Part shown: positions 35,301-38,300 of the stretch, one piece after another
How the letters are laid out: every line of letters begins with the position of its first letter
Numbering within the stretch: the first letter of the stretch is position 1
Source of the DNA: Escherichia coli O157:H7
GTDB taxonomy: Bacteria; Pseudomonadota; Gammaproteobacteria; Enterobacterales; Enterobacteriaceae
Assembly: GCF_013167455.1 (NCBI RefSeq)
Contig: NZ_CP038328.1
Strand: one strand, 5' to 3'
Length of the DNA: 64,000 bases
Made by a program: the position numbers

Positions 35301-38300
35301 TCCGGTTTCTGAATAAAGATCTCTCGCAAATACCAGTATGGCAACGTAGCGCTACGCCCATTCTCACCCTGCCATGCCTGACACCAGACGTCTTTCGCGT
35401 TGCCGCGCAACACAGCATGATGCCCGCAGAAACTGAGTCAGAAAAGGAACGAACACGCGCATTATTATTCACGGTGCTATCCCGTTTTCTCGACAGTAAA
35501 AAATTCCTTTCATTAATGATGTATATGTTACGTAATTGTGTAAGTGACAGCGTTTATCAAATTATTGAAAGCGATATTCACAAAGACTGGAATCTTAGTA
35601 TGGTAGCCAGTTGTTTATGTCTTAGCCCAAGTCTGTTAAAGAAAAAGCTGAAAAGCGAAAACACCAGTTATAGCCAAATAATCACCACCTGCCGCATGCG
35701 TTATGCCGTAAATGAATTAATGATGGACGGTAAAAATATCTCTCAGGTATCACAGTCCTGCGGCTACAACAGTACGTCGTACTTTATTTCTGTCTTTAAA
35801 GACTTCTACGGTATGACACCGCTGCATTATGTTAGTCAGCACAGAGAACGCACTGTCGCCTGATTTTTAACCTTAACGAAGAGCTATATTAATAACGGCA
35901 TCAGCGATAACCCGGTCGATAATAATTCAACTATCGAATGCAGGCGTATGATATGACGTAATTTATTGTCACGAAGCTCGCCTTCGCAGGAGTTTAATTA
36001 TGTCTTCGGATGCTGATGCTCACAAAGTGGGCTTAATCCCCGTCACCCTGATGGTGTCGGGGAATATTATGGGGTCAGGTGTTTTTCTGTTACCTGCAAA
36101 CCTGGCCTCCACCGGCGGGATTGCCATTTATGGATGGTTGGTGACGATTATCGGTGCGCTGGGGCTCTCGATGGTATACGCCAAAATGTCGTTCCTCGAC
36201 CCAAGTCCTGGTGGTTCTTACGCTTACGCCCGCCGCTGCTTTGGCCCGTTTCTCGGTTATCAAACCAACGTCCTCTACTGGCTGGCCTGCTGGATCGGCA
36301 ATATCGCCATGGTGGTCATTGGCGTAGGATATTTAAGTTACTTCTTCCCGATTCTGAAAGATCCATTGGTATTAACCATCACCTGCGTCGTGGTGCTGTG
36401 GATCTTCGTCCTGCTGAACATTGTCGGTCCGAAAATGATCACCCGTGTGCAGGCCGTTGCCACCGTGCTGGCGCTGATCCCCATCGTCGGGATTGCCGTA
36501 TTTGGCTGGTTCTGGTTTCGTGGTGAAACCTATATGGCGGCATGGAACGTCAGCGGCCTGGGCACCTTCGGTGCAATTCAAAGTACCCTTAACGTTACGC
36601 TGTGGTCGTTCATCGGTGTGGAAAGTGCCTCCGTTGCCGCAGGTGTGGTGAAAAACCCGAAACGCAACGTCCCTATAGCCACCATTGGTGGGGTATTGAT
36701 TGCCGCCGTTTGCTATGTGCTCTCCACCACCGCGATTATGGGGATGATCCCTAATGCCGCACTGCGCGTTTCTGCCTCGCCATTCGGTGATGCCGCACGG
36801 ATGGCGTTGGGTGACACCGCCGGGGCCATCGTTTCCTTCTGCGCAGCTGCGGGTTGCTTAGGTTCACTGGGCGGCTGGACATTGCTGGCGGGTCAAACGG
36901 CGAAAGCGGCTGCCGATGACGGACTGTTCCCACCGATTTTTGCCCGTGTAAATAAAGCGGGTACGCCAGTGGCGGGGCTGATTATCGTCGGTATTTTGAT
37001 GACCATCTTCCAGCTCAGCAGCATTTCACCAAACGCGACCAAAGAATTCGGTCTGGTTTCTTCCGTGTCGGTCATCTTTACACTGGTGCCATATCTTTAC
37101 ACCTGTGCGGCGTTACTGCTGCTCGGACACGGTCACTTTGGTAAAGCACGCCCGGCATATCTGGCGGTTACTACCATTGCCTTCCTCTACTGCATCTGGG
37201 CCGTGGTGGGGTCCGGGGCGAAAGAGGTTATGTGGTCATTTGTCACCCTGATGGTCATCACCGCCATGTATGCGCTGAATTACAACCGGCTGCATAAAAA
37301 CCCGTATCCCTTAGATGCACCAATAAGCAAAGATTAATTCCCCTTAATCCAGCAAAGATAAAAGCCAACCTTAAGAACTTAAGGTTGGCTTAATTTTGCT
37401 TTGCGAGCATATGCGCACTTTGTTCGATGGAAACACCGTGATGTTGAAGCGCCTACTAAAAAGACCCTCTTTGAATTTACTCGCCTGGCTATTGTTGGCC
37501 GCTTTTTATATCTCTATCTGCCTGAATATTGCCTTTTTTAAACAGGTGTTGCAGGCGCTGCCGCTGGACTCGCTGCATAACGTACTGGTTTTCTTGTCGA
37601 TGCCGGTCGTAGCCTTCAGCGTGATTAATATTGTCCTGACACTAAGCTCTTTCTTATGGCTTAATCGACCGCTGGCCTGCCTGTTTATTCTGGTTGGCGC
37701 GGCTGCACAATATTTCATAATGACTTACGGCATCGTCATCGACCGCTCGATGATTGCCAATATTATTGATACCACTCCGGCAGAAAGCTATGCGCTGATG
37801 ACACCGCAAATGTTATTAACGCTGGGATTCAGCGGCGTGCTTGCTGCGCTGATTGCCTGCTGGATTAAAATCAAACCTGCCACCTCGCGTCTGCGCAGTG
37901 TTCTTTTCCGTGGAGCCAATATTCTGGTTTCTGTACTGCTGATTTTGCTGGTCGCCGCACTATTTTATAAAGACTACGCCTCGTTGTTCCGCAACAACAA
38001 AGAGCTGGTGAAGTCCTTAAGCCCCTCTAACAGCATTGTTGCCAGCTGGTCATGGTACTCCCATCAGCGACTGGCAAATCTGCCGCTGGTGCGAATTGGT
38101 GAAGACGCGCACCGCAACCCATTAATGCAGAACGAAAAACGTAAAAATTTGACCATCCTGATTGTCGGCGAAACCTCGCGGGCGGAGAACTTCTCCCTCA
38201 ACGGCTACCCGCGTGAAACTAACCCGCGGTTGGCGAAAGATAACGTGGTCTATTTCCCTAATACCGCATCTTGCGGCACGGCAACGGCAGTTTCAGTACC

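What the first reader, a model, noticed from the sequence alone, without database searches (positions are those of the whole stretch)
37362..37396. adiC terminator palindrome doubles as the PmrA-box-like site of the eptA promoter
The perfect palindrome aagccaaccttaag-aa-cttaaggttggctt followed by a T-run sits 25 nt after the adiC stop and looks like an intrinsic terminator. Its right arm plus the next 4 nt is CTTAAG-gttgg-CTTAAT, a PmrA-box-like direct repeat about 50 nt upstream of the eptA ATG. The left arm carries an inverted third copy of the CTTAAGGTTGG half-site, and a fourth CTTAAT hexamer lies at 37343. One element thus seems to insulate eptA from adiC read-through and recruit BasR.
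Basis: partly seen in the sequence, partly recalled or inferred. Interest (0 to 1): 0.45.

Follow-up and report, generated by a model that had tools for sequence, protein, structure and literature searches.

The report
adiC terminator hairpin overlapping eptA's BasR box
A perfect 14-bp palindrome between the E. coli acid-resistance gene adiC and the polymyxin-resistance gene eptA is real: its right half is the already known BasR/PmrA activator site of the eptA promoter, and the whole most likely also forms the stem-loop that ends the adiC transcript, which is a tidy but ordinary case of two signals sharing DNA.

Summary
The arms at 37362-37375 and 37378-37391 are a perfect 14-nt inverted repeat, 24 nt after the adiC stop. 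CTTAAG-GTTGG-CTTAAT (37378-37394) is one of only two full PmrA boxes in the 64-kb window; the other drives pmrR.

Across 50 enterobacterial eptA loci, both half-sites are invariant. So is an NANNAT -10-like hexamer exactly 10 nt downstream of the box. This is the known BasR/PmrA-dependent eptA-basRS promoter.

The terminator reading is supported only indirectly:
- The RNA hairpin has dG -18.8 kcal/mol, but its U-tract is interrupted (UUAAUUUU).
- The outer left arm is kept only where nothing else lies between adiC and the box (Escherichia, Citrobacter amalonaticus).
- It decays where a separate REP-like hairpin is present (Salmonella, C. freundii group). Lineage-collapsed Spearman rho is -0.85.

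No 3'-end data were found.

Two parts of the interpretation fail. The "fourth" CTTAAT hexamer occurs at chance level. The left arm is not a second PmrA box.

One point is unexpected. The inner left TTAA (37371-37374) is invariant in all 50 loci, including genera with no adiC, no long stem and no U-tract. It therefore belongs to the promoter, not to the terminator.

Verdict: real, mostly known, modest interest.

The parts
36000..37337 (+). adiC coding sequence (arginine:agmatine antiporter), stop codon 37335-37337
   Evidence: ORF list; RefSeq annotation of the 100%-identical O157:H7 record and of MG1655
37343..37348 (+).
   Evidence: CTTAAK occurs 49 times against 47 expected in the window. 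It is changed to CTTATT in E. coli L002 and absent outside Escherichia.
37362..37375 (+). Left arm of the palindrome (AAGCCAACCTTAAG). The outer part, 37362-37370, is conserved only in some lineages.
37371..37374 (+). Inner left TTAA, invariant in 50 of 50 eptA loci. Together with 37376-37377 (always A or T) it forms an A/T-rich block at about -46 to -40 of the predicted promoter.
   Evidence: Alignment A1 and per-column counts
37378..37394 (+). PmrA/BasR box CTTAAG-GTTGG-CTTAAT. Its first 14 nt are the right arm of the palindrome.
   Evidence: Pattern search: 2 hits against 0.07 expected. Both half-site cores are invariant in 50 loci. Box definition from PMC3973317.
37362..37391 (+). RNA stem-loop in the adiC 3' UTR (13 bp, GAAC loop, dG -18.8 kcal/mol); proposed intrinsic terminator or 3'-end hairpin
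37392..37404 (+). T-rich tail AATTTTGCTTTGC. It is the interrupted U-tract of the hairpin and, at the same time, the 10-nt spacer between the box and the -10 hexamer.
   Evidence: The tail T-score is 2.25-2.86 in the Escherichia/Citrobacter/Salmonella clade and 1.7-2.0 (A-rich) in the Klebsiella/Kluyvera group.
37405..37410 (+). Predicted -10 hexamer GAGCAT of the BasR-dependent eptA promoter. The inferred transcription start is near 37417.
   Evidence: The hexamer exactly 10 nt after the box has A2, A5 and T6 invariant in 50 of 50 loci. The pmrR box has the same 10-nt spacing to CATACT. The start site is inferred, not mapped.
37441..39084 (+). eptA coding sequence, first gene of eptA-basR-basS (basR 39081-39749, basS 39750-40850)

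Best explanation
Two ordinary signals share about 30 bp of the 103-bp adiC-eptA spacer.

(1) CTTAAG-GTTGG-CTTAAT (37378-37394) is the BasR/PmrA activator site of the eptA-basRS promoter. It lies at about -40 to -24, in place of a -35 element. The -10 hexamer GAGCAT follows 10 nt downstream, and transcription is inferred to start near 37417. Phosphorylated BasR binds the box as a head-to-tail dimer and recruits RNA polymerase. The sequence features are shown here; binding and activation come from the literature.

(2) When adiC is transcribed under acid, anaerobic, AdiY-dependent conditions, the sequence 37362-37391 folds in the RNA into a 13-bp hairpin followed by UUAAUUUU. This ends and/or stabilises the adiC message just upstream of the eptA start. 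This step is inferred.

(3) Evolution: a short promoter-linked inverted repeat, CCTTAA-N4-TTAAGG, is present in all Enterobacteriaceae eptA promoters examined. In Escherichia and some Citrobacter lineages it extends outward (GCCAACC/GGTTGGC) into a full terminator-grade stem. In lineages that carry a separate REP-like hairpin after adiC, the outer extension is degraded. Which state is ancestral is not resolved.
For: Locus identity: 100% match to E. coli O157:H7, with adiC and eptA annotated.

Promoter:
- The box is one of only two in the window, against 0.07 expected.
- Both half-site cores are invariant in 50 loci from at least 8 genera.
- The -10-like NANNAT hexamer sits exactly 10 nt downstream in 50 of 50 loci. 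The same geometry occurs at the pmrR box.

Hairpin:
- Perfect 14-nt arms, dG -18.8 kcal/mol, z = -4.9.
- Flagged as terminator-like.
- No simulated window gave arms longer than 11 nt.

Position: the palindrome starts 24 nt after the adiC stop.

Comparative evidence, from 27 adiC-eptA loci:
- Palindrome dG is -15 to -22 kcal/mol where the gap is 19-26 nt and no other hairpin is present.
- It is -2 to -13 kcal/mol in most lineages where a REP-like hairpin of -17 to -30 kcal/mol intervenes.
- Spearman rho is -0.78 (n = 27), and -0.85 after collapsing to 10 lineages.

Compensated changes: CC/GG to CA/TG in L012/L014/L052, and GCC/GGC to GAC/GTC in L024.

Within E. coli, the 40-nt palindrome segment is at least 99% identical in 5382 of 5411 genomes. 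The adjacent upstream 40 nt reach that level in only 4464 of 5400.

Literature: PmrA box definition and head-to-tail binding (PMC3973317, PMC4660055); BasR binds the eptA promoter (PMC9396075); AdiY activates adiC (bioRxiv 10.1101/2025.06.06.658255).
Against: - No experimental 3' end or transcription start was found. Three supplement sets were searched without any adiC or eptA entry, and a fourth paper had no supplement text held.
- The U-tract is interrupted by AA right after the stem. The tail T-score is about 2.8, which is borderline by the classical terminator scoring scheme as I recall it. In this strain the minus-strand tail is actually better (4.0).
- Formal covariation is weak: 2 of 16 pairs change on both sides, and the count of such pairs does not exceed shuffles.
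- The right arm is constrained by BasR binding anyway, so conservation of the palindrome is only informative for the left arm.
- The REP-like hairpins that 'replace' the palindrome have no U-tract. The shared function may therefore be 3'-end protection rather than termination.
- The lineages in the correlation are not fully independent.
Confidence: 0.65

Rival explanations
1. The palindrome is a symmetric protein-binding site. Either a third, oppositely oriented BasR protomer binds it, or an unknown dimeric regulator or the RNA polymerase alpha C-terminal domain does. Its RNA-folding capacity would then be incidental.
For: The inner left TTAA (37371-37374) is as invariant as the two BasR half-sites in 50 of 50 loci. 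This includes Klebsiella, Kluyvera and Raoultella, which have no adiC, no long stem and an A-rich tail. Alignment columns 18-21 and 23-24 are 100% A/T and lie at about -46 to -40, where an alpha-CTD or UP-like contact would sit.
Against: Only the inner 6 bp (CCTTAA/TTAAGG) is widely conserved. The outer 8 bp, which make the palindrome long, are lineage-specific and track the absence of another hairpin. PmrA binds direct repeats head-to-tail (PMC3973317, PMC4660055). The minus-strand second half-site is CTTTTA. The pmrR, arnB and waaH boxes lack a left TTAA. This reading explains the inner element but not the full 14-bp arms.
Confidence: 0.2
2. The hairpin is mainly a 3'-end stabiliser of adiC mRNA (REP-like protection against 3' exonucleases). 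Real termination would be Rho-dependent, or leaky into eptA.
For: In most Salmonella and Citrobacter lineages with a weak palindrome, a GC-rich REP-like hairpin without a U-tract sits between adiC and the box. The E. coli U-tract is interrupted. Genera with a different co-directional upstream gene have no terminator before the same promoter.
Against: The T-rich tail is conserved throughout the adiC-containing clade, and the hairpin passes a terminator pattern scan. In C. amalonaticus the stem extends to 16 bp and is followed directly by UUUUACUUU, which is a canonical terminator.
Confidence: 0.25
3. The element is a minus-strand or bidirectional terminator that stops antisense transcripts coming out of eptA before they enter adiC.
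For: In this strain the minus-strand hairpin (dG -18.3 kcal/mol) is followed by UUUUAUCUUU, with tail score 4.0 against 2.8 on the plus strand.
Against: The good minus-strand tail is not conserved even within Escherichia (2.4 in L001-L004 and L020). No minus-strand gene or convincing promoter points at it.
Confidence: 0.07
4. The left arm has no function. The palindrome is a historical accident next to a constrained BasR box.
For: Covariation statistics are weak. The palindrome is degraded in Salmonella and the C. freundii group without loss of the promoter.
Against: No simulated window reaches 12-nt arms. The left arm is invariant in Escherichia while the adjacent 24 nt diverge. Decay correlates with the presence of another hairpin.
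Confidence: 0.08

Closest known systems
PmrA/BasR box of PmrA-activated promoters (Salmonella pmrC/pbgP, Klebsiella pbgP, E. coli eptA/arnB/pmrR); OmpR/PhoB-family class II activation
   Same: It has two YTTAAK hexamers with a 5-bp spacer, in direct orientation, occupying the -35 position 10 nt upstream of the -10 hexamer. It fits CTTAAG / xTTAAT exactly (PMC3973317). It is the autoregulated promoter of the eptA-basRS (pmrCAB) operon.
   Different: This promoter alone carries an extra invariant TTAA 8 bp (start to start) upstream of half-site 1. That element is absent at pmrR, arnB and waaH.
Rho-independent (intrinsic) terminator
   Same: It is a stable stem-loop shortly after a stop codon, followed by a T-rich tract, with an A-tract upstream that gives a two-way appearance.
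   Different: The stem is A/T-rich: 5 G-C pairs out of 13. The U-tract is interrupted by AA. Both the 3' arm and the tail are simultaneously constrained as an activator site and a promoter spacer. No 3'-end data exist.
REP-type 3' hairpins between co-directional genes
   Same: They occupy the same position (adiC stop to box) in Salmonella and many Citrobacter lineages, and between proP and the pmrR box in this window. They appear to substitute functionally for the outer palindrome.
   Different: REP-like hairpins are GC-rich, separate from the box, and lack U-tracts. The E. coli palindrome is unique sequence built from the box itself.
Compact terminator-promoter junctions in bacterial operon boundaries
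   Same: The upstream gene's terminator overlaps the upstream or -35 region of the next promoter. This is a common economy in enterobacterial genomes (my own knowledge, not tested here).
   Different: Here the shared bases are the activator's recognition hexamers rather than a sigma-70 -35 element.

Membership tests
PmrA/BasR box | Two hexamers YTTAAK (half1 CTTAAG, half2 xTTAAT) as a direct repeat separated by 5 bp | tested here: met
   CTTAAGGTTGGCTTAAT at 37378-37394; 2 hits in the window against 0.07 expected. Definition from PMC3973317.
PmrA/BasR box | Placed at the -35 position of a promoter that drives a PmrA-regulon gene | tested here: met
   A conserved NANNAT hexamer lies 10 nt after the box in 50 of 50 eptA loci, with the same spacing at pmrR. 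The downstream gene is eptA. The transcription start is inferred only.
PmrA/BasR box | Conserved in orthologous promoters | tested here: met
   The TTAA of half1, GTT, and CTTAA of half2 are invariant in 50 loci.
PmrA/BasR box | Bound by phosphorylated BasR/PmrA and required for induction | not testable with these tools
   Literature only: BasR binds the eptA promoter (PMC9396075). The primary footprint papers could not be retrieved.
Intrinsic terminator | Stable stem-loop downstream of a co-directional stop codon | tested here: met
   13-bp stem, dG -18.8 kcal/mol, z = -4.9, 24 nt after the adiC stop.
Intrinsic terminator | Uninterrupted U-rich tract immediately 3' of the stem | tested here: inconclusive
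   The tail is UUAAUUUUGCUUU if the stem is taken as ending at GGC, or AAUUUUGC after the full stem. It passes the loose scan, but the T-score is only about 2.8. C. amalonaticus has a canonical tail.
Intrinsic terminator | Base pairing maintained in evolution (covariation) | tested here: inconclusive
   70% of cells are paired, against 68% in shuffles and at most 55% in slid controls. Only 2 of 16 pairs change on both sides, which is not above shuffles. Indirect support comes from the trade-off with REP-like hairpins.
Intrinsic terminator | Mapped RNA 3' end at the U-tract, independent of Rho | not testable with these tools
   No adiC or eptA entries in the three supplement sets that could be searched; a fourth paper had no supplement text held.
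Second (inverted) PmrA box on the minus strand | Two YTTAAK hexamers 5 bp apart on the minus strand | tested here: not met
   The minus strand reads CTTAAG-GTTGG-CTTTTA. The pattern search returns no minus-strand hit at this site.
Known RNA family (Rfam) | Match at or above the gathering score | tested here: not met
   Only sub-threshold hits with E of 0.09 or more. The weak STnc630 hit is plausibly explained by the PmrA box it shares with the pmrR transcript.

The most novel reading that the evidence does not exclude
The eptA (pmrC) autoregulatory promoter may carry a third functional element. This is the invariant TTAA 8 bp upstream of half-site 1, which forms CCTTAA-N4-TTAAGG. It is absent from other PmrA promoters. 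It could be bound by an extra BasR protomer, by unphosphorylated BasR, or by the alpha C-terminal domain, and so tune autoregulation.

In Escherichia this pre-existing promoter palindrome would then have been extended into the adiC terminator. In that case two acid-responsive circuits physically interfere. BasR-P occupancy could roadblock or alter adiC termination. adiC transcription could transiently clear BasR from the box.
Probability: 0.15. Interest if true: 0.5.

Novelty: new member of a known kind. Interest (0 to 1): 0.27.

Why it matters
eptA-basRS controls lipid A phosphoethanolamine modification and polymyxin/colistin tolerance, and its promoter is autoregulated. Two points follow from the layout. 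The activator site is also the 3' arm and tail of the upstream gene's hairpin. And an invariant extra TTAA sits next to the box. Both affect how promoter constructs should be designed, because most cloned 'eptA promoter' fragments will include or truncate the adiC hairpin. Both also affect how read-through from acid-induced adiC is interpreted. Beyond that, the site is a clear small example of a regulatory site and a terminator co-evolving, not a new mechanism.

Tried and rejected
1. Experimental 3'-end and transcription-start data. I searched the supplements of Adams 2021 eLife, TERMITe 2025 and SMRT-Cappable-seq 2018 for adiC, eptA or MG1655 coordinates 43356xx, and found nothing. No supplement text was held for Dar & Sorek 2018.
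2. Primary PmrA footprint papers (Wosten & Groisman 1999; Marchal 2004; Lee 2004) are not held. A full-text search for the site sequence found only a primer.
3. The Rfam scan found no family at the site.
4. The formal covariation test on 50 loci gave a weak signal, so I do not rest the terminator claim on it.
5. The fourth hexamer at 37343 is rejected as chance.
6. The minus-strand PmrA box is rejected because its second half-site is CTTTTA.
7. A conserved bidirectional terminator is rejected because the good minus-strand tail is strain-specific.
8. The outer helix GCAAAG/CTTTGC and the direct repeat AGCAAAGAT(T/A)AA are weakened by a G-to-C difference in K-12 at window position 37357. I do not treat them as part of the element.
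9. The left TTAA is not a general feature of PmrA promoters. It is absent at pmrR, arnB and waaH.

Full report
**Locus.** The window matches E. coli O157:H7 at 100% identity. RefSeq annotates adiC and eptA on either side of the site. On the plus strand the order is adiA, adiY, adiC (36000-37337), eptA (ATG 37441, ends 39084), basR, basS. The genes pmrR and proP lie on the minus strand. MG1655 differs from the window by one base in the 103-nt adiC-eptA spacer, at 37357, outside the palindrome.

**Observation.** Arms 37362-37375 and 37378-37391 are a perfect 14-nt inverted repeat separated by 2 nt.
- Only two perfect short-loop palindromes in the window are longer, and both look like terminators.
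- None of 30 simulated windows exceeded 11-nt arms.
- As RNA the plus strand forms a 13-bp stem with a GAAC loop, dG -18.8 kcal/mol, z = -4.9.
- A simple scan calls it terminator-like on both strands.
- The palindrome begins 24 nt after the adiC stop.

The T-run, however, is separated from the full stem by AA.

**The BasR/PmrA box.** YTTAAK-N5-YTTAAK occurs twice in 64 kb, against 0.07 expected. One copy is at 37378-37394 (+). The other, at 40960-40976 (-), lies upstream of pmrR. The sequence CTTAAG-GTTGG-CTTAAT fits the published definition exactly: half1 CTTAAG, half2 xTTAAT, 5-bp spacer, bound head-to-tail (PMC3973317, PMC4660055). BasR is reported to bind the eptA promoter (PMC9396075).

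I fetched 60 eptA loci from one-genome-per-species contigs and aligned 50 of them on the box. Both half-site cores are invariant. Exactly 10 nt after the box, every locus has an NANNAT hexamer (GAGCAT at 37405-37410 here), with A2, A5 and T6 invariant. The pmrR box has the same 10-nt spacing to CATACT. This is the geometry of a PhoB-type class II promoter. It predicts a transcription start near 37417, which is an inference. This part of the finding is correct and already known.

**The terminator reading.** No 3'-end data could be found, so the evidence is indirect.

adiC lies directly upstream of eptA in 27 loci, from Escherichia, Citrobacter and Salmonella.
- Where the adiC stop is only 19-26 nt from the left arm (Escherichia, C. 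amalonaticus), 13-14 of the 14 arm positions are complementary and dG is -15 to -22 kcal/mol.
- Where a GC-rich REP-like hairpin of -17 to -30 kcal/mol lies between adiC and the box (Salmonella, the C. freundii complex and others), the outer left arm has mostly decayed, to 8-11 of 14 positions and dG of -2 to -13 kcal/mol. The C. gillenii-like group (L016, L022, L055) is an exception and keeps 12-13 of 14.
- The two energies are anticorrelated: Spearman rho is -0.78 for n = 27, and -0.85 after collapsing to 10 lineages.

This fits functional redundancy between the palindrome and a separate 3' hairpin.

Two compensated changes keep pairing:
- CA/TG in L012/L014/L052, which converts half1 from CTTAAG to CTTAAT.
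- GAC/GTC in L024.

The formal covariation count is nevertheless weak.

Within E. coli, the 40-nt palindrome segment is at least 99% identical in 5382 of 5411 genomes. The promoter segment reaches that level in 5387 of 5410, and the 40 nt upstream in only 4464 of 5400.

Caveats:
- The U-tract (UUAAUUUU) is interrupted, with a tail score of about 2.8.
- In this strain the minus-strand tail is better (4.0), but that is not conserved in other Escherichia.
- The REP-like substitutes have no U-tract, so the shared role may be 3'-end protection as much as termination.

**What the left arm is not.**
- PmrA binds direct repeats. On the minus strand the would-be second half-site is CTTTTA, and no minus-strand box is found.
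- CTTAAG is self-complementary, so the 'inverted third copy' is equally a direct copy at an off-phase 8-bp spacing.
- The isolated CTTAAT at 37343 is at chance frequency and is not conserved.

**An unexpected detail.** The inner left TTAA (37371-37374) is invariant in all 50 loci, and the two bases between the arms are always A or T. This includes Klebsiella, Kluyvera, Raoultella and Enterobacter. In those genera:
- the upstream co-directional gene is a conserved gene of about 300 codons rather than adiC (its family was not tested);
- the long stem is absent;
- the tail is A-rich.

The element is missing at the pmrR, arnB and waaH boxes. The inner part of the palindrome therefore belongs to the eptA promoter specifically, at about -46 to -40. 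It could be an extra BasR contact or an alpha-CTD/UP-like site; its function is unexplained. Only the outer 8 bp behave like a terminator extension. The most economical history is that a short promoter-linked inverted repeat was extended into a terminator-grade stem in some lineages, or eroded in others.

**Comparison with known systems.** The site is a member of the PmrA/BasR box family: sequence, placement and conservation were tested and met, while binding was not testable. It plausibly belongs to the intrinsic terminators: hairpin and position are met, the U-tract and covariation are inconclusive, and the 3' end is untested. No Rfam family matches. Overlap of a terminator with the next promoter is a familiar economy. 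The specific overlap with an activator's recognition hexamers was not found in the text library, but it is not mechanistically new.

**Verdict.** The feature is real. Novelty is low to modest, and interest is about 0.27.

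Noticed in passing
window 40819-40984 (-), box 40960-40976, pmrR CDS 40915-40826: The second PmrA box (CTTAAGGTTCACTTAAT) drives pmrR, which overlaps the 3' end of basS convergently by 25 nt. Rfam STnc630 matches this stretch at 178 bits, so the 'sRNA' STnc630 corresponds to the pmrR transcript, and the matched region includes the PmrA box.
   Followed up: partly
window 40919-40946: A perfect inverted repeat with 10-nt arms (ACTCTCCTCC...GGAGGAGAGT) lies in the pmrR 5' leader and contains the Shine-Dalgarno-like GGAGGAGAG. 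It may be a translation-sequestering hairpin, or a 3' hairpin for basS on the other strand.
   Followed up: no
window about 40985-41013 (-): A REP-like hairpin (GGCCTGAT...ATCAGGCC) lies between the proP stop and the pmrR PmrA box. This is the same 'gene - separate hairpin - box' layout seen for adiC-eptA in Salmonella and the C. freundii group.
   Followed up: partly
window 37371-37377; alignment A1 columns 18-24: A TTAA 8 bp upstream of half-site 1 is invariant in 50 of 50 eptA promoters but absent at the pmrR, arnB and waaH boxes. Its function is unexplained.
   Followed up: partly
window about 34899-34926 (+): A strong GC hairpin followed by T8 lies in the adiA 3' UTR (GCGCGGCCCCACCCCGCGCTTTTTTTT). 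This is the position of the AdiZ/STnc1180 3'UTR-derived sRNA described for Salmonella (bioRxiv 10.1101/2025.06.06.658255).
   Followed up: no
window 37326-37337 and 37351-37362: A 12-nt direct repeat, AGCAAAGATTAA / AGCAAAGATAAA, spans the adiC stop and the left flank of the palindrome. It is weakened in K-12 by a base difference at 37357 and is probably not functional.
   Followed up: partly
L063 4120-4160 (-), MG1655 waaH promoter: The waaH PmrA box (CTTAATAGTTTCTTAAT) is itself enclosed by an 8-nt inverted repeat, ACAGGCTT...AAGCCTGT. This is another PmrA box embedded in a palindrome, but with different geometry.
   Followed up: no
window 46651-46827 (+), 49304-49384 (-); 10404-10476 (+): There are three naRNA4 (REP-derived nucleoid-associated RNA) matches and one tRNA above the Rfam gathering scores.
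   Followed up: no
window 19843-19876 and 6160-6191: The two longest perfect short-loop palindromes in the window have 15-nt arms. The one at 6160-6191 has A6/T6 flanks typical of a bidirectional terminator.
   Followed up: no
L031-L034, L039, L049, L057 (Kluyvera), about 70-80 nt upstream of eptA: The stop codon of the co-directional upstream gene of about 300 codons lies only about 7 nt before the conserved left TTAA, with no intervening hairpin. Read-through into the eptA promoter is apparently tolerated in those genera.
   Followed up: no
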